Below are positions 6,245-18,107 of a DNA stretch of 20,000 nt, piece after piece. The DNA is from an uncultured virus (IMG/VR IMGVR_UViG_3300025502_001355) (taxonomy: Duplodnaviria > Heunggongvirae > Uroviricota > Caudoviricetes). A model generated the notes under the pieces. The model saw only the letters and a program-made list of their open reading frames with translations. It had not been told where the DNA came from and did no database searches. The stretch lies in IMG/VR virus record IMGVR_UViG_3300025502_001355; one strand, written 5' to 3'. The translations under genes and the position numbers were made by a program. Within the stretch, counting starts at the first letter, position 1. Every line of letters starts with the position of its first letter.

Positions 6245-7957
6245 ATGAAAATATTATTCTACCATTCTGAAGATAAACTATTCCATGACGTTGTACATCC
6301 TAATGACAGCGTTTTTGTGAAATCAACTAGTCTTTACCTTAAGACATATATAGAAATTAAAAAACCACAAATAGCCAAGAAGTTGGAATGGGCGATCCCA
6401 CAACAAGTTAAGTTATCTGACGATGAGCTAGTAAGTCTGATCCAACAAGAAAAACCAGATATGTTCTGCACTACTCATTATATCTGGAACTACATAGCAA
6501 TACTAGCACAGTTAGACAGAATCCGACCTCGAGTAGATTCTAGCATACTGTTTGTTACAGGGGGCCCTAGTGTAGATGTTAATATAAATCCAAATTACTT
6601 CTTAGAACATAAATTTGTTGATTATGCATTTTATGGGCCAGGCGAGAAAGCATTTGCTGAGTTCATTGAGAGGATGGTGCTTAACAAACCTTTAGTAAAA
6701 GAAGAACTTACAAACATGGCGTGGCCTGATTCTAATAGGGGTGCAATTGTAGCCGAATACGAATATGTTCCGCAATCTAAAATAAGTCCATACTTACATA
6801 ATGCAGAAATGTTCAAAGCCATGGTTGACGACATGTACGAGAAAAAACTGCAACCAATTATTTCGTACGAACTGACTAGGGGATGTCCTTACGCATGTAC
6901 TTTTTGTGATTGGAATAGCGGTTACGGAAACAAAACAACACGCAGGAAAGACAGTTACAAAGATGAAATTGATTTATTCCAAGCAGTTGGAGTAAAAAGT
7001 TTATTCATGGCAGACGCAAACCTGGGTCAGTACCAAGAGGATGTTGATCTAATAGAGTATATGGCAGATAAGAATCTAAACGAAAATGCAAGTTTTAGAT
7101 TAGATTACACAGTAAGCAAATTACGAAAAGATAACAACATAAAAATATTCCATACTATGGCAAAAGCAAATCTGTGTAGACATTTCGTAATAAGTGTACA
7201 AGATAATAATCCAACAATACTTGAGAACATAGATAGACCCGACGTCGGGTGGGATGTACACACTAGTCATATAAGAGAACTTAGAGAGTTATACCCGCAC
7301 CTACCATCAGCAGTACAGTTAATACAAGGACTACCCGGACAGACAGTTGATTCCTGGAGACAAACCTTGTCTGACATGGCCAACGAACATGTAATACCAT
7401 TTGTATATGTAAGCGAACTGCTATCTGCAAGTCCGGCAGCCAGAAGTAACGAGTATATTAATAAATGGAAGTTTGAGTACAGTAACTCCCTAAGATGGGA
7501 CTTCCACGGACAAAGTGAATTCAGTAGTCCTTTTACGCAAAGTTGTGTGTCATTCACTCAACACGACTTTATAGAGATGACAATGCTAAGTTTAATACAT
7601 GCAACTATAAATTTTTACAAAGTGTACAAAGTAGGAAAGTTAATGGACTATATTAGCTTTGACGCAGATAAGATAGTAGACTTATTCTTAGTAAGTGATC
7701 TTTATCAGATTCTAAGAGACAATTTGGCTGAAAACTGGTTAATACACAACAAGTTCTATTTTACAACTGAACTGGATCGTACACCCACAGCGAAGCCGAT
7801 CACTGCATGTTCTATGGCAGTGTCAGACATGACTTCGAAGTTGAACACTAACGGACAGTTTCTTAAATGGACATTACAACATATTTCAGCATCGTCCAGC
7901 AGTAAGCGCAATGATTATGCAAAACAAATCTATAGAAGGATGCACCATGAGCATTAA
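6245..7957 (+). CDS. B12-binding-domain radical SAM protein
   Basis: 570 aa. RGCPYACTFCDW (CxxxCxxC). N-terminal PDMFCTTHYIWN, VTGGPSV and YGPGEKAF are typical of cobalamin-binding class B radical SAM enzymes; also ADANLG, ISVQ and LIQGLPGQT. Confidence 0.88.
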   Translation: MKILFYHSEDKLFHDVVHPNDSVFVKSTSLYLKTYIEIKKPQIAKKLEWAIPQQVKLSDDELVSLIQQEKPDMFCTTHYIWNYIAILAQLDRIRPRVDSSILFVTGGPSVDVNINPNYFLEHKFVDYAFYGPGEKAFAEFIERMVLNKPLVKEELTNMAWPDSNRGAIVAEYEYVPQSKISPYLHNAEMFKAMVDDMYEKKLQPIISYELTRGCPYACTFCDWNSGYGNKTTRRKDSYKDEIDLFQAVGVKSLFMADANLGQYQEDVDLIEYMADKNLNENASFRLDYTVSKLRKDNNIKIFHTMAKANLCRHFVISVQDNNPTILENIDRPDVGWDVHTSHIRELRELYPHLPSAVQLIQGLPGQTVDSWRQTLSDMANEHVIPFVYVSELLSASPAARSNEYINKWKFEYSNSLRWDFHGQSEFSSPFTQSCVSFTQHDFIEMTMLSLIHATINFYKVYKVGKLMDYISFDADKIVDLFLVSDLYQILRDNLAENWLIHNKFYFTTELDRTPTAKPITACSMAVSDMTSKLNTNGQFLKWTLQHISASSSSKRNDYAKQIYRRMHHEH

Positions 7958-9280: not shown

Positions 9281-10651
9281 ATGGCTGTTACCCAAATAAG
9301 TAGAATTCAACATAGACGAGGTCTTAATCAAGACCTACCACAACTTGCTGGCGCAGAGCTCGGCTGGAGTGTAGACACACGTAAATTATATATCGGTAAC
9401 GGTACCGTAGCAGAAGGTGCACCAGCTACTGGTATTACAGAAGTGTTAACACAATACACTGACTTAGCGGCATTGATTGGTTCGTATACTTTTAAGGGAA
9501 ATGTTACAGAGTATACTGTCGAAACTGGCAGTAGTATCCTTAATCCAACAGTACGCAGTTTCCAACAGAAATTTGATGACTTTGTTAATATTAGAGACTT
9601 TGGCGCAGTAGGTGACGGTGTTGCGGATGATACGGCATCGATCCGTCGTGCAATCGAACAGATATATAAAGAATCAGAAAATAATTTCGATACTCGCACA
9701 CGAAGAACAATTTATATTCCTGCAGGAACATACTTAACCAGTAATGTTATTAGCATTCCGCCTAACACAAGTTTACAAGGTGACGGACCGTCTAGCAGTA
9801 CAATTAAGTTAACTTATGGTAATTTAACTGTAGCAAATTTGTCAGACAGCGCATTCCAAAGTGGAGCAACAATTGGGACAGGCAGTGCAGTACTACCTGA
9901 TCAAATCGATATAAGCGGATTAACGTTCCAAAACGTATCTGCAGACGTTCAGTATCCTTTGCTAAACATCGATAGTGCTAGTAATGTTAGAATAACAAAC
10001 ACAGCTTTTCAGTCTAATATCAAAGCAGGAACTTATTACCCTAACGTAATTGAAATATTAAGTACCAGCACCAGTACACAAAATATTACGTTAGACAAAG
10101 TCAAAATATTAGGTGGTGGTAACGGTATTGTAAACATGGGATCTACTACAAAGTTTGTTAACATACTTAATTCTGAGTTTGATGGTATCAGCAATACTGC
10201 AATAGTATTGAACAGTGTTGATAGTGTTAGTAGTATTAACAACTACTTCGGAACTGTTGGCACAAGAAAAACTACTGCAGGCGCAACTAGTTTTGTTTCC
10301 TTTGGTGAAGTACATACTAACGGAAGCGCACTGACTACTGGTATGCAACTAGGTAATCTAAGATACGGAGTAGCACGTAGTGCGTCAATTAGTACTGCTT
10401 CGCCGGTTATTGCAACATTCGTTGCTAACACAGCAGGCGAAATAAAGTATCAAATCAGTAACAGTTCAGCAAAACGTTTTGGTACATACCAATTCAGTAC
10501 AGATGGAACAAGTTCAGAGTTTCATGATCAACATGTGGAAAATGGAGTTGGTGTTAAAGCAAACTTATTCGCCAATGCCACTAGTTTAACCGTCACATTA
10601 GAATCAGGCACAGGCACATTTAAATACGCAATCAATCAATTTATTAGTTAA
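9281..10651 (+). CDS. Tail fibre/spike protein with Mtd-N-like N-terminus and pectate-lyase-like beta-helix
   Basis: 456 aa. RIQHRRG...LAGAELGWSVDTRKLYIGNG at the N-terminus, VNIRDFGAVGDGVADDTASIRRAI...IYIPAGTY beta-helix cap, and Ser/Thr/Asn-rich repeats. Confidence 0.82.
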   Translation: MAVTQISRIQHRRGLNQDLPQLAGAELGWSVDTRKLYIGNGTVAEGAPATGITEVLTQYTDLAALIGSYTFKGNVTEYTVETGSSILNPTVRSFQQKFDDFVNIRDFGAVGDGVADDTASIRRAIEQIYKESENNFDTRTRRTIYIPAGTYLTSNVISIPPNTSLQGDGPSSSTIKLTYGNLTVANLSDSAFQSGATIGTGSAVLPDQIDISGLTFQNVSADVQYPLLNIDSASNVRITNTAFQSNIKAGTYYPNVIEILSTSTSTQNITLDKVKILGGGNGIVNMGSTTKFVNILNSEFDGISNTAIVLNSVDSVSSINNYFGTVGTRKTTAGATSFVSFGEVHTNGSALTTGMQLGNLRYGVARSASISTASPVIATFVANTAGEIKYQISNSSAKRFGTYQFSTDGTSSEFHDQHVENGVGVKANLFANATSLTVTLESGTGTFKYAINQFIS

Positions 10652-11117: not shown

Positions 11118-13421
11118 ATGACAAAGATTCAAGTAATCAAGAGAGATGGAATCAAAGAAGAACTAGACATAGAAAAAATGCACAAGGTTGTTATGTGGGC
11201 AACTGAAGGTATTACAGGTGTAAGTGCCAGTGAAGTAGAACTAAAAAGCCACATCCAATTTTATACTGGGATCAAAACAGTAGACATACAAGAAACACTT
11301 ATTAAAAGTGCCGCTGATTTGATTTCAGAAGAAGCTCCAAACTATCAGTATGTTGCTGGCAGACTAATTAACTATCATCTACGTAAACAAGTATATGGGG
11401 ACTATGCACCTTGGCCATTGTTAAAACTGGTAGAACACAATGTCGAAAGTGGTTTTTACGATCGCGGCCTATTAGAAGCATACGATACAGATGAGTGGGA
11501 GAAATTAGATAGTTATATTAAACATGATCGTGATGAAACATTCACCTATGTTGCTATGGAACAATGGCGTGGCAAGTATCTTGTACAAAATCGTGTTACT
11601 GGTGAGATGTTTGAGACTCCACAAATGGCTTACATGTTAATAGCCGCGACACTATTCCAAGACTACCCTAAAGATATTAGACTCAAATGGGTACGTGATT
11701 ACTATGACGCAATCAGTAATTTTGATGTAAGTTTGCCTACACCGGTTATGGCAGGTGTGCGCACACCACAAAAACAGTTCAGCAGTTGTGTGCTGATTGA
11801 AACAGACGACAGTTTAGACAGTATCAATGCAACAGCCGCAAGTATTGTTAAGTACGTGTCACAAAAAGCAGGCATTGGCATTGGTGCAGGACGTATACGT
11901 GCATTAGGTGCACCTATACGCAAAGGAGATGCTTTTCACACAGGCGTAACTCCTTTTTACAAGTTATTCCAATCTGCTACACGTAGTTGTAGTCAGGGAG
12001 GTGTAAGAAATGGTGCCGCAACACTTTACTATCCAATATGGCACTATGAAATCGAAGACCTCTTGGTCCTTAAAAACAACAAAGGCACAGAGGATAATCG
12101 TGTGCGTCAAATGGACTATGGCGTACAATTTAATAAGTTAATGTATGAAAGACTAATCACAAATGGAGACATCACTGTGTTTAGTCCGCATGATGTACCA
12201 GAGATGTATGAAGCGTTCTTCAATGATCAAGACAAATTCAAAGAGCTATACGAGAGAGCAGAACGCAATACTAAACTGAGGAAGAAGACCTACAAGGCAG
12301 CAGATCTGTTTAGTAGGTTTATGCAGGAACGCAAAGACACTGGAAGAATTTATTTACAGAACGTGGATCATGCTAATACGCACTCACCGTTCGATGAAAA
12401 GATCGCGCCTGTGAAGATGAGTAACCTTTGCGCAGAAATAGATTTACCAACTGTACCATTGAAAGATGTCAATGACGAGGATGGTAGGATCGCCCTGTGT
12501 ACTTTATCAGCGATCAATTGGGGCAATGTAAAAAGCCCACATGACTTTGAGAAAATGTGCAAGTTGGCAGTACGCGGCCTAGATGCACTGTTGAGTTACC
12601 AAGGTTATCCAATTAAAGCCGCACGTAAAGCAACAGAAGAGTTTAGACCGTTAGGTATAGGCATCATTAACTTTGCTTATTTCTTGGCTAAGAATGATGT
12701 AAGTTACAGTGACCCAGCGGCGTTGCCACTGGTAGATGAGTACGCAGAAGCCTGGTCTTACTATTTGATCAAGGCTTCTGCAGACTTAGCGGAAGAACAA
12801 GGTGCATGCACCAGATGGAACGATTTAAAATCTGCGCAAGGTCGTTTACCCATTGATACGTATAAGCAGGATGTTGACGAGTTGGTCAAGCATCAAGAGC
12901 GTATGCCATGGAATGATCTGCGAGAACAAATAAAACGGACTGGTCAGCGTAATGCAACACTAATGGCATTGATGCCTGCAGAAACAAGTGCGCAGATCAG
13001 TAATGCTACTAATGGTATAGAGCCACCGCGAAGTTTTGTAAGCGTTAAGGGGTCAAAGCACGGCCAATTAAAGCAGGTTGTGCCTGAATATAGGCGGTTA
13101 AAGAACCGTTATGAACTACTGTGGGATCAGACTACCCCGGAGGGATATATTAAACTGTGTGGCGTACTTCAAAAGTACATTGATCAAGGTATTAGTGTAA
13201 ACACATCTTACAATCCTCAGCACTACGAGGACGAAAAGATTCCAATGTCATCAATGTTACAACACTTGTTGATGTGTTACAAGTATGGATTAAAGCAGTT
13301 GTACTACTTTAATACATATGATGGACAAGGTGAATACATAGTAGAAGCACTAGGTGAAGCAAAACAGCAAGAGCTTGAAGACTACGAAGATCAAGATGAT
13401 TGCGAAAGTTGTGTAATTTAA
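11118..13421 (+). CDS. nrdA: Ribonucleotide reductase class Ia alpha subunit with ATP cone
   Basis: 767 aa. VIKRDG ATP cone, [35 protein letters not shown] (N-C-E active site), ALCTL, LYYFNT tyrosine dyad and C-terminal CESC. Confidence 0.98.
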
Positions 13422-13431
13422 GAGAGAAAAC

Positions 13432-14559
13432 ATGAGCGTATTCAATATTAAAAATAATAAAGATCATACCAAGTCACTTGCGTTCCTAGACGAAGCAGGT
13501 ACTCCGGCAATACAGAGATTCGACACACTAAAGTATCGTCAATTTGACAAGTTGACAGACAAGCAGTTAGGTTTCTTTTGGAGACCTGAAGAAGTTGATG
13601 TATTGCGTGATGCAAAAGACTTTAAGGAACTTACTGAGTATGAAAAGCATATCTTCACCAGTAATCTTAAAAGACAGATACTACTGGACAGTGTACAAGG
13701 ACGCTCACCTAATCTAGCATTTTTGCCTATCGCTACCATCCCAGAGTTGGAAACTTGGATAGAAACTTGGGCATTTAATGAAACAATACACAGTCGTAGT
13801 TATACACATATTATTCGTAATGTGTACAGCGATCCGAGTACAGTGTTTGATGGACTACACGATATCAAAGAGATTGCAGATTGTGCCAAAGACATTAGTC
13901 ACTACTATGATGACTTGATTAAAGCTGTGCAGTATTATAATCTACTTGGCGTAGGCAAGCACAAGGTTAACGGCAAGGAAGTTATAGTTGATCGTTACGA
14001 GTTAAAACGTAAACTATGGTTATGCTTAAACAATGTTAATGCGTTAGAAGGTATACGTTTTTATGTTTCGTTTGCATGCAGTTGGGCATTTGCTGAACTT
14101 AAAAAGATGGAAGGCAATGCTAAGATTATTAAACTGATTGCACGTGATGAAAATGTTCACTTGGGCAGTACACAAACACTACTTAAAATATTACCGTCAG
14201 ACGACAAGGACTTTGCAAAGATCCGCGAAGAAACTAAAGAGGAATGTGAAACAATGTTCCTTAATGCCGCCAAGCAGGAAAGAGATTGGGCACAATACTT
14301 GTTCAAAGACGGTAGTATGATTGGACTAAACACAGTATTATTGTGTCAGTACATTGATTGGTTGACCTGCAAGCGTATGACAGCAGTTGGGCTTAGTTGT
14401 GGTATTAAAACAGGTAGCAATCCGTTGCCGTGGACACAAAAGTGGATTGCTGGGGCAGAAGTGCAGGTGGCACCACAGCAAACTCAAATATCATCATATA
14501 TAATTGGTGGAACCAAACAAGACGTGGACTCAAACACGTTCAGTGGCTTTACTCTTTAA
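13432..14559 (+). CDS. nrdB: Ribonucleotide reductase class Ia beta subunit (tail has Gln at the Glu350/Glu352-equivalent positions)
   Basis: 375 aa. [23 protein letters not shown] (radical Tyr), [17 protein letters not shown], and tail [11 protein letters not shown] with Tyr356. Confidence 0.97.
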
Positions 14560-15690
14560 ATGTGGAGTAACCCAGTTACAATTGACAATGAGATTATGTC
14601 TATGGCAAAAGCTCTCGATTGTAATTGGGTAGGAGCAGTTAAAGTTAACGCACAGTCTGCATACGAGTATAATAACTGCCATAACAATGTTAGAATACAC
14701 TCTAGTATATACGGCGGCAAGAAAGTAATTGGCTATTATTTTATAAAGGGGTTCAATGTTGTGCAGGCCATAAGACACAGTGTATGGCAAGATAACACGT
14801 TAGTAGACGTAACACCATATAAAGATAACAGAGAACACATTATTTTTGCGTTAAGTTCAGACCAATCCAACGATTACTCGATACCTAACTGTTACTCTCA
14901 GTCTCTTGCTAAATATTTAAAACAGGAGAGTGACCGAATGTATTATGTATATCAAATAGTGGATCCGAGAAATAACCAACCATTTTATATCGGCAAAGGT
15001 ACAGGTGACAGAGCAACAACACATTTACGGACTGTGTCCGACACTAGAAATGTTTACAAAGAAAATAAAATCGCGAGTATAAGAAAGTCCGGAGCAGAGC
15101 CAGTAATTGAATACATTGCTGAAAACATATTAGACGAGGAATTAGCGTATGATATCGAGGCCACTGCAATTAAAAAGTATGGTAGAAAAGGATATGACAA
15201 GAATGGCATATTAACCAATATATGTCCTGATGCCCGCCCACCTAATCAGAAAGGTAGAACATACGAAGAAATATACGGGGTTAACAAAGCAAAGCAACAA
15301 CGAGAATTAAGATCACGCCTTCAGAAAGAGAGAGGTGGATATGGCCCTAAGCAACACAGCATCGAAACACGAAAACGATTTAGTGAATTAAATTCTGGTG
15401 CCGGAAACCCAATGTACGGTAAAACACAAAAAGAAAGTACCAAGGCATTAATTAGCAAAAAAGCAAAGTTGCGAATCGGTAAAAAAAATAAAAATAGCCA
15501 CACTTACAGACTAACATCTCCAACAGGGGATGAGCACATATTATACGGCGGTGAATCTACTGATTTCTGTAAAACACATAATTTAAGTTGGAGTACTCTT
15601 AAAATGCAAATTGAAAAGAAATGGGGTATTCCAAAAAAAGGCAAAACTAAAGGTTGGAAGTTAGAAGACTTAACAGCTACTAGAACATAA
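14560..15690 (+). CDS. Fusion ORF: N-terminal papain/transglutaminase-like Cys-His-Asp domain (aa 1-126) plus GIY-YIG homing endonuclease with NUMOD3 motifs
   Basis: ATG directly abuts the nrdB TAA. N-terminal NNC40HNNV...GY...AIRH73SVW...LVD83VTP. From M127: YYVYQIVDP...FYIGKG..DR..H...E.A..IE...LTN, then HSIETRKRFS and GNPMYGKTQKESTKALIS. Confidence 0.75.
   Translation: MWSNPVTIDNEIMSMAKALDCNWVGAVKVNAQSAYEYNNCHNNVRIHSSIYGGKKVIGYYFIKGFNVVQAIRHSVWQDNTLVDVTPYKDNREHIIFALSSDQSNDYSIPNCYSQSLAKYLKQESDRMYYVYQIVDPRNNQPFYIGKGTGDRATTHLRTVSDTRNVYKENKIASIRKSGAEPVIEYIAENILDEELAYDIEATAIKKYGRKGYDKNGILTNICPDARPPNQKGRTYEEIYGVNKAKQQRELRSRLQKERGGYGPKQHSIETRKRFSELNSGAGNPMYGKTQKESTKALISKKAKLRIGKKNKNSHTYRLTSPTGDEHILYGGESTDFCKTHNLSWSTLKMQIEKKWGIPKKGKTKGWKLEDLTATRT
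14891..14934 (+). promoter_or_regulatory. RBS-sequestering hairpin with a late promoter in the loop
   Basis: GTTACTCTC (14891-14899) pairs with GAGAGTGAC (14926-14934), 9 bp with one G-U. Alternatively TCTCTTG (14902-14908) pairs with CAGGAGA (14923-14929). GCTAAATA lies between the arms. Confidence 0.65.
14938..15690 (+). mobile_element. Free-standing GIY-YIG homing endonuclease with its own internal start
   Basis: Own late promoter (GCTAAATA, 14908-14915), AGGAG (14924-14928) and ATG 14938. GIY-YIG and NUMOD3 motifs. Located next to nrdB, a classical homing endonuclease neighbourhood in T4-like phages. Confidence 0.8.
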
Positions 15691-15765
15691 ATGAAAATAG
15701 ACAGAGGAATATACGTAGGTGGCTACAGCTTGGTACCAGATCAACTAATTAGGACTAATCGGGGT

Positions 15766-15793
15766 TTGACAAATAATTTTTAACAAGTATAAT
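15766..15793 (+). promoter_or_regulatory. sigma70-type promoter for glutaredoxin
   Basis: TTGACA (15766-15771), 16 nt spacer, TATAAT (15788-15793); ATG 7 nt downstream. Confidence 0.75.
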
Positions 15794-15800
15794 TAAGCGT

Positions 15801-16046
15801 ATGATTACAATATATTCAAAAAACAATTGTCCTTTTTGCACAAAGGCCAAAGCACTACTAGAGATCAAAGGTATAAAGTACACCGAAGTAAACATTGAAC
15901 AAGATGCAGATGCAAGGAAACGCATCGTTGACGCTGGCTTGCGTACAGTACCTCAGATTTATATCAATGAACAACTGCTACCTGGAGGATACAATGGGTT
16001 AGCAGATCAAACAACTGAATTTTTCGATAAGCTCAAGGAGAGTTAA
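15801..16046 (+). CDS. Glutaredoxin (NrdC/GrxC-like)
   Basis: 81 aa. IYSKNNCPFC, RTVPQIYI and GGY motifs; adjacent to nrdAB. Confidence 0.95.
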   Translation: MITIYSKNNCPFCTKAKALLEIKGIKYTEVNIEQDADARKRIVDAGLRTVPQIYINEQLLPGGYNGLADQTTEFFDKLKES

Positions 16047-16047
16047 C

Positions 16048-16344
16048 ATGTTATTAGAAAATAGTAAATGGGAAGGACAGATCTGCGCACTAAAACTAAT
16101 CACTGGGGAAGAGATAGTTGCAAAGATTACCAGCGAAACAGCAGATCACTACAACGTCGAGAAGGCATGCAATGTAGTACCTGGTCAGCAAGGTGTTGGA
16201 TTAATTCAAGCACTGTTCACAGCAGATCCACATACCAGTGCGTCTATTCAAAAAAATCATGTTGTTATGATTGCTGAATGCATTGATCAAATCAAAACAC
16301 ACTATATCAAGACCACAACTGGGTTGGAAATTGTTAGGCCTTAA
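16048..16344 (+). CDS. Hypothetical phage protein (possible Sm-like small beta-barrel)
   Basis: 98 aa, AGGAG RBS. LKLITGEEIVAK...Y...TTGL pattern recalled from T4-like phage small proteins. Confidence 0.7.
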   Translation: MLLENSKWEGQICALKLITGEEIVAKITSETADHYNVEKACNVVPGQQGVGLIQALFTADPHTSASIQKNHVVMIAECIDQIKTHYIKTTTGLEIVRP

Positions 16345-16650
16345 CTAGCCGCCGGCAAACACAGTAGGTGATCCGCTTATCATAGCACCGGCGTCGGCAC
16401 TATCACCTATTCTACCTACTCCAATACCATTGAGGAAAACACTACCTGAACCAGCATTTAAAAATGCCACGTGAGGTACGCATGAATCTCCACTGGGTAT
16501 TAGGTGAGATACTGTCGGAGCACCAACTACTATAATGTCAATACCGTTAGCATGAACAGTGCCGTCGTTGTTTGGCGAAGCAATGGTTGTTGTGGTATCA
16601 CATCCATGTCCGGTTGTTAGTGTGTCACCTACTCTACATATTGCTGGCAT
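16345..16650 (-). CDS. PAAR-domain baseplate spike tip protein (T4 gp5.4-like)
   Basis: 101 aa. MPAICRVGD...GHGC, TVHANG, H...C.PH, GSGSVFLNGIGVGRIGD, SGSPTVFAG. Own late promoter on the minus strand. Confidence 0.9.
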   Translation of the reverse strand: MPAICRVGDTLTTGHGCDTTTTIASPNNDGTVHANGIDIIVVGAPTVSHLIPSGDSCVPHVAFLNAGSGSVFLNGIGVGRIGDSADAGAMISGSPTVFAGG

Positions 16651-16656
16651 AATATG

Positions 16657-16664
16657 TATTTATA
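16657..16664 (-). promoter_or_regulatory. T4-type late promoter TATAAATA (minus strand)
   Basis: The + strand reads TATTTATA at 16657-16664, 6 nt upstream of the PAAR ATG. Confidence 0.85.
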
Positions 16665-16673
16665 CCAAAAAAT

Positions 16674-16702
16674 TTGATTATACCCCACTATTATAGTATA
16701 AT
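16674..16702 (+). promoter_or_regulatory. sigma70-type promoter, divergent from the PAAR promoter
   Basis: TTGATT (16674-16679), 17 nt spacer, TATAAT (16697-16702). Confidence 0.6.
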
Positions 16703-16766
16703 AGCAGTTGTTAACTTACATCCGACTCGCTTTTAAATACTGGATGCGGTAAGATAGGAGAAAAAC

Positions 16767-17393
16767 ATGAAGCAAGATCTAACCAAATGGTCAAGATTAG
16801 TAACATTTTTTCTAGGAACGTGGCTGGTAGTATATGCAATTATTGCAGTCACTAGTAATGTTAAAGCGCCAGCAAACCAAGCAGTGGGCGCAGAAACTAT
16901 CGAAATTATTAACACAGCAGTAAAGCAATCGCCTGTTGACATGAGACAGGTTAGGCGAGAATTGGATTGCCTTGCTAGGAACATATACTGGGAAGCTCGT
17001 AGTGAGCCAGTTGAAGGTATGATTGCTGTGGCACAGGTCACTCTTAACCGAGTGGCACACAACAGTTTCCCTGATGATATATGTGATGTGGTATATCAAG
17101 GCCCAACCAAAGCATCCTGGAAAGACAAGAGTGTATATTATCCTGTAAAACATCGTTGCCAATTCAGTTGGTACTGTGATGGTAAATCAGATCGCATTTC
17201 GTCAGTTAATCAAACTATCTTTGACCGTTGCTATGAAGTAGCCAGACAGGTATTAATTGAAGGCAAAAGATTACCTGGCTTAAAACAAGCAGTATTCTAT
17301 CATGCAGATTATGTTAGCCCTGTCTGGCGTTATCCTAAATTGGCTAAAATAGGCACACACATATTTTACGGTGATAGAAACAGCCAAAACTAA
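16767..17393 (+). CDS. SleB-like cell wall hydrolase (Hydrolase_2 family) with N-terminal membrane anchor
   Basis: CLARNIYWEARSE (catalytic Glu), AVAQVTLNRV, ICDVVYQ, CQFSWYCDG, FYHADYVSP and IGTHIFY. Hydrophobic residues ~11-28, AGGAG RBS. Confidence 0.92.
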   Translation: MKQDLTKWSRLVTFFLGTWLVVYAIIAVTSNVKAPANQAVGAETIEIINTAVKQSPVDMRQVRRELDCLARNIYWEARSEPVEGMIAVAQVTLNRVAHNSFPDDICDVVYQGPTKASWKDKSVYYPVKHRCQFSWYCDGKSDRISSVNQTIFDRCYEVARQVLIEGKRLPGLKQAVFYHADYVSPVWRYPKLAKIGTHIFYGDRNSQN

Positions 17394-17412
17394 ACTGCTA
17401 ACATAGTAGCCA

Positions 17413-17420
17413 AATAAATA
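17413..17420 (+). promoter_or_regulatory. Late promoter variant AATAAATA
   Basis: Intergenic, followed by GGAGG (17426-17430) and ATG 17437. Confidence 0.6.
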
Positions 17421-17436
17421 CTATTGGAGGTTTAGT

Positions 17437-17868
17437 ATGTCAAAGATTTTATTTTTTCTATTGTTTATTCCCACATTGTTATTCTCAGCTGATCTTCATC
17501 AGATGAACGAAAATGATCTGGCACTAGATATTACGAACTCAGACACAGTACAAAATGGTCGAGAGTGGTACGACAGACGTTGTTCCTTCTGTCATGGTGG
17601 CCAAGGCAAAGGTGGCAAAGGTCCTTGCTTAACATGTGGCAAGTTTACATACAGTTCAAATACCAACATGGGTATATTCACAACCATTAGTGTGGGCATT
17701 ACCAATCAGAGTTTAGGCGGCACAATGGGTGCATTTGGTACAACCATTGACGGTATGGATATAGTTGCTATTGTAACTTACTTACGGTCAGAAGAAAGAC
17801 GCAGAATTGAGTCTGGTGAAATTAAAGATCCATACATTGTGCAAGAACAGATGGTCTTCCCGGAATAA
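17437..17868 (+). CDS. Secreted monoheme c-type cytochrome
   Basis: Signal peptide MSKILFFLLFIPTLLFSA, G..WY...C49SFC52H53 heme-binding motif, GP.L, candidate axial Met97 (TMGAF), and C-terminal helix DIVAIVTYLRS. Confidence 0.87.
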   Translation: MSKILFFLLFIPTLLFSADLHQMNENDLALDITNSDTVQNGREWYDRRCSFCHGGQGKGGKGPCLTCGKFTYSSNTNMGIFTTISVGITNQSLGGTMGAFGTTIDGMDIVAIVTYLRSEERRRIESGEIKDPYIVQEQMVFPE

Positions 17869-17879
17869 AGGATAGTAGA

Positions 17880-18107
17880 ATGAGCAAGCCTATTGCAGAT
17901 GATTTTGAAGTAATCGAAGCGCAACAAGAGCAAGACATAGATGCAGAAGACTATGGCTTTGTATTTGATTCAGACGGCAACTTGAAGTATGCCTTTGTCC
18001 CAGAAGCAATTTTTGACAATAATCCGCCGAAAATTATCAAACAAATTATGAAACTGTTGGATGTTACTGACCTTGAACAGTTTAATAACGACATTACCCT
18101 GCACTAA
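17880..18107 (+). CDS. Small acidic hypothetical protein
   Basis: 75 aa with AAGGA upstream; DYGFVFDSDGNLK motif. Confidence 0.7.
   Translation: MSKPIADDFEVIEAQQEQDIDAEDYGFVFDSDGNLKYAFVPEAIFDNNPPKIIKQIMKLLDVTDLEQFNNDITLH

What the first reader, a model, noticed from the sequence alone, without database searches (positions are those of the whole stretch)
14479..14499. NrdB lacks the conserved Glu350 although all other class Ia residues are intact
Seen: the metal ligands (LLDS, ETIH, ALEG, DENVH), radical Tyr (SRSY), W48-type WRPEE and Tyr356 are all present and the gene shows no decay, yet both acidic residues of the PQExE motif are Gln. Established (recalled): E350 substitutions in E. coli beta essentially abolish turnover. 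Inference: two parallel E-to-Q changes in an otherwise conserved gene point to selection rather than drift. Explanations include post-translational repair, a compensated alpha/beta interface, or a beta that is inert or inhibitory with host alpha.
Basis: partly seen in the sequence, partly recalled or inferred. Interest (0 to 1): 0.75.

Follow-up and report, generated by a model that had tools for sequence, protein, structure and literature searches.

The report
Mobile cassette recodes essential NrdB glutamate
In this uncultured phage the small subunit of ribonucleotide reductase has glutamine where an essential glutamate belongs because a mobile DNA-cutting element replaced the end of the gene, and that element always brings an unknown cysteine enzyme that may turn the glutamines back into glutamates.

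Summary
NrdB (13432-14559) reads PQ-Q350-T-Q352-ISSY356 where E. coli has PQ-E-V-E-VSSY. Contigs of 3 of 4 further runs carry the same letters.

It is not a private oddity. The ORF that starts right after the nrdB stop (14560-15690) is an unknown 126-aa domain fused to a GIY-YIG homing endonuclease.
- In IMG/VR, 72 contigs carry the Gln tail. 71 have this ORF's homolog behind nrdB and 1 is too short to tell.
- By distinct contexts, the N-domain lies behind 46 of 46 Gln alleles and 0 of 129 Glu alleles.
- In relatives a remnant of the original tail, starting exactly at codon E350, lies behind the endonuclease.

So the cassette inserted at codon 349/350 and brought a recoded tail.

My reading, inferred rather than shown:
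- The G-to-C changes keep the carrier allele from being cut.
- The invariant Cys-His-Asp N-domain repairs the protein, Gln to Glu. Fold evidence is weak (Z up to 3.6).
- A second clade has Glu350 beside intact cassettes.

The scan had noted this system before on three other genomes. I found no paper on it.

The parts
11118..13421 (+). nrdA, class Ia RNR large subunit, with ATP-cone; contact residues for beta-E350 kept
   Evidence: Pfam PF02867, PF00317 and PF03477. Aligns to E. coli and N. gonorrhoeae NrdA. K153, S646 and K647, the equivalents of E. coli K154, S647 and K648, are present.
13432..14559 (+). nrdB, class Ia RNR small subunit, intact except Gln at 350 and 352
   Evidence: Pfam PF00268. 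E-value 2e-140 to E. coli NrdB chains. Metal ligands, Y122, W48 and Y356 present.
14455..14559 (+). Exchanged 3' end of nrdB (recombination tract)
   Evidence: Against L163 there are 0 differences from 14455 to 18100 but 5-20 per 100 nt upstream; the last differences are at 14451 and 14454. Against L081, 30 of 109 nt differ in 14451-14559, compared with 5.9% overall. The 27-nt window from 14478 has 14 differences, the highest in nrdA-nrdB.
14479..14487 (+). Codons Q350-T351-Q352 (CAA ACT CAA); Glu-type relatives have GAR ACN GAR
   Evidence: The first bases of codons 350 and 352 are the only positions of 105 that fully separate the 42 Gln-type from the 132 Glu-type sequences. The Gln set was partly chosen by these letters.
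14497..14499 (+). Y356 codon (radical-transfer tyrosine), kept
   Evidence: Y356 is kept in 43 of 43 distinct Gln-type NrdBs.
14560..14937 (+). N-terminal domain of the cassette ORF (aa 1-126): unknown family with invariant C40 (14677-14679), H73 (14776-14778) and D83 (14806-14808)
   Evidence: Alignments A2 and A3: 43 distinct sequences, with C40, Y60, H73, D83 and P86 invariant. AlphaFold2 pLDDT 90.9, with C40 at the start of helix 40-51, H73 in strand 67-77 and D83 in strand 81-83. No Pfam, NCBIfam or PDB sequence match.
14938..15690 (+). GIY-YIG nuclease part with NUMOD3 and a C-terminal DNA-binding region (aa 127-376 plus stop)
   Evidence: Pfam PF22945 at 27.5 bits (cut-off 27) and PF07460 at 32.2 bits (cut-off 20.4). 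Related to annotated Seg-like and intron endonucleases of deposited phages from residues 112-128 onward only.
15691..15800 (+). Spacer behind the cassette; resembles the sequence that follows the nrdB stop in L082 and L083; no tail remnant here
15801..16046 (+). Glutaredoxin gene, which directly follows nrdB in most cassette-free relatives
   Evidence: Pfam PF00462. Gap table of loci. Homology with L001 stops at 14562 and resumes at 15801.

Best explanation
The Gln codons belong to a mobile cassette. A free-standing GIY-YIG homing endonuclease entered nrdB between codons 349 and 350 and brought its own copy of the tail (codons 350-375), so that nrdB stays whole. In that copy the Glu codons next to the insertion point are changed at their first base (GAR to CAR).

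Step 1, shown by comparison: the Gln tail and the cassette travel together, and the cassette moves between phages.

Step 2, inferred, about 0.7: the G-to-C changes stop the left junction from recreating the endonuclease's target, so the carrier is not cut. They sit at non-wobble bases that Glu-type phages cannot vary.

Step 3, inferred, about 0.45: the Cys-His-Asp domain that always comes with the Gln tail is a thiol amidase that deamidates Gln350 (and Gln352) of NrdB to Glu after translation. That would restore the residue that positions the beta tail in NrdA. The stated confidence is for the whole chain.
For: Linkage:
- 72 IMG/VR contigs hold [10 protein letters not shown]. 71 have a homolog of the window's ORF (35-100% identity) behind nrdB and 1 has only 41 nt left.
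- By distinct contexts, the N-domain follows 46 of 46 Gln alleles and 0 of 129 Glu alleles. The nuclease follows 44 of 46 and 1 of 129.
- The three discordant loci sort with the N-domain. L199 and L202 have Gln and the N-domain only. L064 has Glu and the nuclease only.
- P0281, on 29 contigs, is an N-domain ORF that ends in a piece of NrdB tail.

Insertion site: in L168, L222, L197, L193, L183 and L177 an ETE tail remnant starts exactly at codon 350 behind the cassette. L187, L181 and L194 hold altered remnants at the same place.

Mobility:
- Cassette dS is far below nrdB dS, for example 0 against 0.72 for the window and L163.
- The nrdB tree needs at least 11 changes of state, 6 of them forced by well-supported branches.
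- The recombination boundary lies at 14451-14455.

Second clade:
- The native tail is ETEVESY in 120 of 120 sampled hits. The 68 with enough downstream sequence have no cassette.
- Cassette alleles read QTQVQSY, which is three E-to-Q changes.

Enzyme candidate:
- C40, H73 and D83 are invariant in 43 of 43 sequences.
- dN/dS is 0.10-0.35.
- In the model the Cys opens a helix and the His and Asp sit on neighbouring strands.
- The best weak structural matches over residues 30-126 are Cys-His-Asp enzymes: PeiW at Z 3.6, TglA at 3.6, PeiP at 3.1, arylamine N-acetyltransferases at 2.8 and LapG at 2.5.

Need for Glu: passages in PMC11482829, PMC8463856 and PMC9248007 call E350 essential and show it bonded to alpha K154 and S647.
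Against: - No activity is shown for either protein.
- Fold likeness is below any safe level: no Z of 5 or more among 48,161 chains and no Foldseek match at E 0.001 or better. No sequence family matches.
- In the second clade, 15 of 50 distinct cassette-bearing contexts have Glu at 350 (13 with Gln352, 2 with Glu throughout), all with an intact N-domain. Some also have a full-length nuclease (L389, L430, L428). So neither immunity nor the N-domain strictly requires Gln350. Reversion at just the essential site suggests that Gln350 has a cost even with the N-domain present.
- The linkage could be mere co-transfer within one cassette.
- Gln is also the most conservative change reachable at a non-wobble base, so E-to-Q alone does not prove repair.
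- The Gln set was chosen by the Gln letters themselves.
Confidence: 0.45

Rival explanations
1. Immunity only. The cassette recodes the tail to escape its own endonuclease. Gln350 NrdB works well enough in these phage enzymes without any repair. The N-domain has another role in the element, such as a homing helper or a regulator.
For: - The cassette linkage, insertion site and mobility evidence fit this reading as well.
- Glu350 occurs beside intact N-domains in 15 of 50 contexts of the second clade.
- There is no significant fold or family match to a deamidase.
- Gln-type nrdB genes keep all other key residues in 43 of 43 distinct sequences.
Against: - E350 is described as essential in E. coli. 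From memory only, the abstract of Ravichandran et al. 2017 reports E350A, E350D and E350Q as inactive; that paper was not held.
- The NrdA contact residues are unchanged.
- The N-domain persists under purifying selection where the nuclease is gone (L199, L202, P0281).
- No Gln350 allele was seen without the N-domain: 0 of 46.
Confidence: 0.3
2. Crippled subunit carried by drive. Gln350 NrdB is inactive or poor. The phage lives on host nucleotides or the host RNR. The cassette spreads because homing outweighs the cost.
For: - E350 is reported as essential.
- Reversion to Glu at 350 alone, with Gln352 and Gln354 kept, in 13 of 50 contexts suggests a cost.
- The cassette is clearly mobile.
Against: - The Gln lineage was found in all 24 runs listed, dated 2017 and 2018.
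- nrdA, nrdB and grx are intact, and Y356 and the metal ligands are kept in 43 of 43 Gln-type genes.
- Five large Gln-type contigs hold no second nrdB and no NrdD, but they are only 32-63% complete.
- This reading does not explain why the N-domain is kept.
Confidence: 0.15
3. Protein-level warfare. The N-domain is a thiol peptidase or modifier that attacks Glu-type NrdB tails of the host or of rival phages. The Gln tail is the carrier's protein-level immunity.
For: - Cys-His-Asp arrangement, with the nearest weak structural matches being isopeptidases and proteases.
- Strict linkage of the N-domain with recoded tails.
Against: - It requires Gln350 NrdB to be active by itself, against what is reported for E. 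coli.
- Two contexts with an all-Glu tail carry an intact N-domain.
- No evidence of any kind bears on a target.
Confidence: 0.07
4. Sequencing or assembly artefact, or neutral drift in one lineage.
For: Only contigs, not raw reads, could be laid.
Against: - The same letters stand in contigs of 3 further runs.
- The same protein lies on 20 plus 15 contigs.
- The same recoding occurs in 72 IMG/VR contigs whose nrdB is 52-100% identical.
Confidence: 0.01

Closest known systems
Free-standing homing endonucleases of T4-like phages that target ribonucleotide reductase genes (mobE, hef, seg genes)
   Same: An endonuclease gene sits beside nrdB and varies in presence among relatives. Flanking sequence is co-converted. 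The target lies in codons for functionally critical residues (passages of PMC2988022; PMC2790892 seen as listing and abstract only).
   Different: Here the element sits inside the reading frame and supplies a replacement tail. The carrier allele differs by amino-acid changes at a residue held to be essential. A third module, the Cys-His-Asp domain, always comes along. None of this is in the passages I read.
Mobile endonuclease ORFs (mORFs) with C-terminal replacement in fungal mitochondria (Allomyces atp6; Glomus atp6, atp9, cox2, nad3)
   Same: An inserted C-terminal copy lies in frame, followed by the endonuclease ORF and then the displaced native C-terminus. [quoted passage not shown] Relatives of the window show exactly this layout.
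   Different: Those are organelle genes and mostly LAGLIDADG enzymes. In the cases described there, the inserted copies match the relative's protein sequence at 94-100%. Here the copy carries fixed Glu-to-Gln changes, plus an extra enzyme-like domain. In the window itself the native remnant is gone.
Chemoreceptor maturation by the deamidase CheD
   Same: Glutamines encoded in the gene are turned into glutamates on the protein by a dedicated enzyme. CheD also deamidates a Gln engineered in place of a Glu (passages of PMC3513319).
   Different: No sequence or fold relation to CheD was found or tested. The phage case would restore an essential residue of a recoded enzyme and would be part of a selfish element. 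The activity is hypothetical.
E. coli class Ia NrdB (beta2) and its residue E350
   Same: About 60% identical over residues 26-375, with an ungapped alignment of the tail. All cofactor and pathway residues are shared.
   Different: Position 350 is Gln, and so is 352. In E. coli, E350 bonds to alpha K154 and S647 and to bridging waters, and its substitution disrupts radical transfer (passage of PMC11482829).
Transglutaminase-like Cys-His-Asp (iso)peptidases PeiW and PeiP, arylamine N-acetyltransferases, LapG
   Same: Same order of Cys, His and Asp, with the Cys at a helix start. These are the best, though weak, structural matches over residues 30-126 (Z 2.5-3.6, rmsd 2.7-7.0 A, 64-92 residues aligned).
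   Different: Z is far below a safe level, there is no sequence relation and Foldseek finds nothing. Membership is not established.

Membership tests
Class Ia ribonucleotide reductase small subunit (NrdB, PF00268) | Profile match to the family and close similarity to solved class Ia beta subunits | tested here: met
   PF00268 at 137.8 bits (cut-off 33.6). E-value 2e-140 to E. coli NrdB chains.
Class Ia ribonucleotide reductase small subunit (NrdB, PF00268) | Di-iron ligands (D84, E115, H118, E204, E238, H241), radical Y122, and pathway residues W48 and Y356 | tested here: met
   All present in the alignment to E. coli and in 43 of 43 distinct Gln-type relatives.
Class Ia ribonucleotide reductase small subunit (NrdB, PF00268) | Glu at position 350 of the C-terminal tail, called essential for turnover | tested here: not met
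   CAA, Gln, at 14479-14481. The gene is a member by descent; this one functional residue is missing in the DNA.
Free-standing GIY-YIG homing endonuclease | GIY-YIG catalytic module and NUMOD3 DNA-binding repeats | tested here: met
   PF22945 at 27.5 bits (cut-off 27, marginal) and PF07460 at 32.2 bits (cut-off 20.4). The motif YYVY...PFYIGKG is read. Hits to annotated Seg-like endonucleases.
Free-standing GIY-YIG homing endonuclease | Present or absent among close relatives at one site, and less diverged than its flanks | tested here: met
   Absent in L001 and L081 at the same place. Cassette dS is 0 against nrdB dS 0.72 for the window and L163, with further pairs alike.
Free-standing GIY-YIG homing endonuclease | Cuts the endonuclease-free allele and spares its own | not testable with these tools
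   Inferred from the insertion point at codon 349/350 and the two fixed G-to-C differences.
Endonuclease cassette with C-terminal replacement (mORF type) | In-frame replacement tail, endonuclease ORF, and displaced native tail downstream | tested here: met
   Met in relatives: remnants start at E350 in L168, L222, L197, L193, L183 and L177, and shorter remnants occur in others. In the window the first two parts are present and the remnant is absent.
Papain-like / transglutaminase-like thiol hydrolases, including protein-glutamine deamidases | Invariant Cys, His and Asp in that order; Cys at the start of a helix; His and Asp on neighbouring strands | tested here: met
   C40, H73 and D83 invariant in 43 of 43 sequences. 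Secondary structure of the model, pLDDT 90.9.
Papain-like / transglutaminase-like thiol hydrolases, including protein-glutamine deamidases | Significant likeness of fold or sequence to known members | tested here: inconclusive
   VIA-align best Z 3.6 (PeiW, TglA), with no Z of 5 or more. Foldseek against the PDB gives nothing at E 0.001 or better. No Pfam, NCBIfam or PDB sequence match.
Papain-like / transglutaminase-like thiol hydrolases, including protein-glutamine deamidases | Deamidation of Gln350 and Gln352 of NrdB | not testable with these tools
This needs mass spectrometry.
Group I intron with an internal endonuclease gene | Intron RNA fold, and a 3' exon that would restore Glu350 on splicing | tested here: not met
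   No Rfam match at E 1 or better in L162 (same sequence as the window here) or in L168. No tail remnant lies behind the ORF in the window.

The most novel reading that the evidence does not exclude
A selfish element that edits an essential enzyme at the DNA level and un-edits it at the protein level. The homing cassette recodes the essential Glu350 (with Glu352, and Glu354 in a second clade) of NrdB to Gln, which protects its carrier from cleavage. It also supplies a new Cys-His-Asp protein-glutamine deamidase that restores the glutamates after translation. The phage's nucleotide supply then depends on keeping the parasite, so loss of the element leaves a dead enzyme.
Probability: 0.4. Interest if true: 0.95.

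Novelty: new variant of a known kind. Interest (0 to 1): 0.82.

Why it matters
Homing endonucleases are thought to pick targets that the host cannot change. This case shows how a carrier may still differ from the target at such positions: by recoding an essential catalytic-tail residue.

If the linked Cys-His-Asp protein really converts Gln back to Glu, three things would follow:
- It would be the first homing element known to carry its own protein-repair enzyme, which is an addiction device.
- It would be a new family of site-specific protein deamidases.
- It would be a natural test of what E350 does in class Ia ribonucleotide reductase.

If the protein does not do this, then these phage enzymes work with Gln at a position where E. 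coli tolerates no change, which is of interest to the radical-transfer field.

There is also a practical point. Annotators would call these nrdB genes normal, and an activity prediction would be wrong without the neighbouring gene.

Tried and rejected
- Megablast of nrdB against deposited phages found nothing. No deposited phage has the N-domain; all 44 matching records begin at residue 112 or later.
- The window's own assembly is not held, so I used record G001.
- Intron idea: no Rfam match.
- Compensating NrdA changes: none at the K154, S647 and K648 equivalents. The hairpin and loop-2 variants are alike in the Gln and Glu sets; loop 2 was covered in only 4 Gln loci.
- Second nrdB or an NrdD in 5 large Gln-type contigs: none, but the records are 32-63% complete.
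- Species genomes of bacteria and archaea: 0 hits to the Gln-tail pattern.
- N-domain against Pfam, PHROGs (only phrog_37148, function unknown, in 11 of 43), NCBIfam and PDB sequences: no named family.
- Protein Atlas: the nearest clusters are unnamed. YunG-like clusters score 0.85-0.90 with few shared features, so they are a lead only. My 'YunG' paper search returned only surnames.
- Foldseek against the PDB: nothing at E 0.001 or better. BFVD gave one fused relative and some unnamed small phage proteins.
- Complex prediction for the N-domain with the NrdB tail was not available.
- Alignment A2 could not seed a locus search. P0281 gave one weak locus.
- Breakpoint mapping in other pairs was uninformative, because their background divergence is too high.
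- dN/dS of nrdB (0.02-0.08) cannot separate the time before the cassette arrived from the time after, because the cassette is younger than its flanks.
- Ravichandran et al. 2017 on E350 mutants is not held, and a search for E350Q, E350A or E350D found no RNR paper.
- Run X23 has no contig over 14419-14495.
- The sampled loci held no close donor for the window's tail: 74-79% identity to all of them.

Full report
**What is in the window**

nrdA (11118-13421) and nrdB (13432-14559) are followed without a gap by an ORF of 376 codons (14560-15690), and then by a glutaredoxin gene (15801-16046). Pfam finds a GIY-YIG module and NUMOD3 in the second two-thirds of that ORF. It finds nothing in residues 1-126.

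**The observation**

HMMER aligns the NrdB tail to E. coli NrdB without gaps. E. coli VQVAPQ-E350-V-E352-VSSY356 corresponds to [13 protein letters not shown], encoded by CAA ACT CAA at 14479-14487. All cofactor and pathway residues are present.

- Among the best 120 relatives listed (of 8000 scored), 118 have Glu at both places. The exceptions are the window's own protein (on 20 contigs) and P0003 (on 15 contigs).
- P0004 differs from the window's NrdB at five residues, and all five lie in the last 26.
- Among the query plus 150 cluster representatives, position 350 is E in 121 and Q in 3. Position 352 is E in 95 and Q in 10. So Glu352 varies in nature and Glu350 hardly does.
- Contigs of three further runs (X20, X22, X24) span the site and the junction to the next ORF with no difference. 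X23 does not cover it. These are contigs from one habitat label, 2017-2018.

**The tail is a foreign patch**

- Against the nearest relative with DNA (L081, 94% identical over nrdA-nrdB), 30 of 109 bases differ in 14451-14559. The 27-base window from 14478 holds 14 differences, the most anywhere in 3.4 kb.
- Homology with L001 ends at 14562 and resumes at 15801.
- In most relatives the glutaredoxin gene abuts nrdB.
- Against L163, a 221-kb contig, the window shows no difference from 14455 to 18100 but 5-20 per 100 bases upstream.

Two comparisons therefore place a recombination boundary about 25 bases upstream of codon 350.

**The Gln tail belongs to a cassette**

- All 11 IMG/VR loci found with the downstream ORF (66-100% identity) have PQQTQ, although nrdB is only about 70% identical to the window's in 9 of them.
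- Conversely, a pattern scan for [10 protein letters not shown] found 72 contigs. 71 have a homolog of the ORF behind nrdB and one has only 41 bases left.
- By distinct contexts: Gln alleles have the N-domain in 46 of 46 and the nuclease in 44 of 46. Glu alleles have the N-domain in 0 of 129 and the nuclease in 1 of 129.
- An arbitrary 120 hits to a pattern that allows E or Q at both sites gave EE in 114, EQ in 5, QQ in 1 (with the cassette) and QE in 0.

**Where the cassette went in**

In L168, L222, L197, L193, L183 and L177 a second copy of the tail lies behind the endonuclease. It starts exactly at codon 350 as ETEISSY or ETEITSY. L187, L181 and L194 hold altered copies, and L164, L169 and others keep only the last codons. 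In L193, L183, L177 and L181 the cassette ORF runs in frame into that remnant. The window keeps no remnant.

The element therefore sits between codons 349 and 350 and carries a replacement tail. This is the layout described for endonuclease ORFs in fungal mitochondria (passages of PMC3630166). No intron model fits.

**It moves**

The cassette is much less diverged than nrdB in many pairs. Examples are dS 0 against 0.72, 0.18 against 1.04, and dN 0.043 against 0.243. Both of its parts are under purifying selection. On an nrdB tree built without the tail, the Gln state needs at least 11 changes.

**Why Gln**

Across 105 aligned bases, only the first bases of codons 350 and 352 separate the two allele classes. 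The caveat is that part of the Gln set was chosen by those same letters.

The usual logic of homing endonucleases, which target codons for critical residues and tolerate wobble change (passages of PMC2988022), makes self-immunity the natural reading. Without the changes, the left junction would rebuild the target. This is inference; no cleavage was tested.

**The extra domain**

Three points tie the Gln tail to the first 126 residues rather than to the nuclease.

1. The discordant loci sort with the N-domain. L199 and L202 have Gln tails and a stand-alone N-domain ORF but no nuclease. L220, L245 and L211 carry it as a separate gene. L064 has a related nuclease without the N-domain and keeps Glu. 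P0281, on 29 contigs, is an N-domain ORF ending in a piece of NrdB tail.
2. C40, H73 and D83 are invariant in 43 distinct sequences. In a confident model (pLDDT 90.9) the Cys opens a helix, and the His and Asp lie on neighbouring strands.
3. The best structural matches over residues 30-126 are Cys-His-Asp enzymes (PeiW, TglA, PeiP, N-acetyltransferases, LapG). They reach only Z 2.5-3.6, and Foldseek and all sequence libraries are silent.

I took that lead and tested it as far as co-occurrence and fold allow. Gln is the one residue that an amidase can turn into Glu, as CheD does on chemoreceptors (passages of PMC3513319).

**A second clade, for and against**

I found 80 loci with a stand-alone N-domain protein. 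Their nrdB is about 52% identical to the window's, and the gene order is nrdB, then a GIY-YIG ORF, then the N-domain ORF. The native tail of this clade is ETEVESY in 120 of 120 sampled hits, and none of the 68 with enough downstream sequence has a cassette.

Among 50 distinct cassette contexts:
- 28 read Q-Q-Q at positions 350, 352 and 354;
- 7 read Q-Q with Ser or Thr at 354;
- 13 read Glu at 350 with Gln at 352;
- 2 read Glu throughout.
All 50 have the Cys, His and Asp motifs.

Three parallel Glu-to-Gln changes strengthen the case that Gln is chosen for a reason. The 15 contexts with Glu350 show that neither the nuclease nor the N-domain strictly needs Gln350. Reversion at only the essential site hints that Gln350 costs something.

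**No compensation in NrdA**

The partners of E350 named in PMC11482829 (K154, S647, a water network to loop 2 and the hairpin) are unchanged. Five large Gln-type contigs hold one nrdB each and no NrdD, but they are incomplete.

**Verdict**

- Shown by comparison: the feature is the footprint of a mobile endonuclease cassette that replaced the nrdB tail.
- Inferred, about 0.7: the changes give immunity to self-cleavage.
- Hypothesis, about 0.45: the linked Cys-His-Asp domain restores Glu on the protein.

Earlier notes of this scan describe the same system on three other genomes. They are not independent proof. Searches of the paper library for homing endonucleases with nrdB, and for deamidase or deamidation with homing endonuclease, found no description of it. 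For these I saw listings and abstracts only.

Noticed in passing
L193, L183, L177, L181 (behind the cassette): The cassette ORF reads in frame into the remnant NrdB tail (E350 to the end). The endonuclease protein would then end in the peptide that binds NrdA.
   Followed up: partly
L252, L276, L279, L282, L342 (IMG/VR): Tails with Glu350 but Gln352 (ETQ). No endonuclease homolog was found by tblastn, and no N-domain by HMM, within 630 nt downstream in four of them; the fifth is too short. They may be scars of a lost cassette or natural variants.
   Followed up: partly
window 14652-15197, run X20: A second strain in the same run carries a diverged copy of the cassette: contigs with 26 of 247 and 14 of 221 differences, beside identical ones.
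   Followed up: no
nrdB-glutaredoxin junction in relatives (e.g. L007, L014, L018, L023, L038, L046, L082, L100): Inserts of 250-2100 nt of other kinds sit between nrdB and grx in many Glu-type loci, and my nuclease profile matched none of them. L100 has a gap of exactly 1241 nt, like the window. The junction looks like a hot spot for insertions.
   Followed up: no
Yersinia phage fHe-Yen9-04 (LT960551.1, about 223358-225522): nrdB is annotated in two pieces (g298, g300) with a GIY-YIG-like ORF (g299) between them.
   Followed up: no
P0239 (719 aa, cluster representative): A long NrdB relative reads LPQQEQILNY: Gln at 350 with Glu shifted to 351. Its relative P0258 reads LPQEEKILNY.
   Followed up: no
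window 9281-10651 (+): The ORF has a Mtd_N (major tropism determinant N-terminal) domain and a pectate-lyase-like domain, so it is probably a receptor-binding protein. I did not look for a diversity-generating retroelement.
   Followed up: no
window 6245-7957 (+): A 570-aa protein with B12-binding and radical SAM domains in a phage context.
   Followed up: no
BFVD hits to the N-domain model: Small unnamed proteins of cultured phages resemble the model weakly: Vibrio phage phi50-12 A0A5P8PRB8 (134 aa, probability 1.00, TM 0.50), Erwinia phage vB_EamP-S6 Gp040 and Vibrio phage JA-1. They could give a culturable entry to the fold.
   Followed up: no
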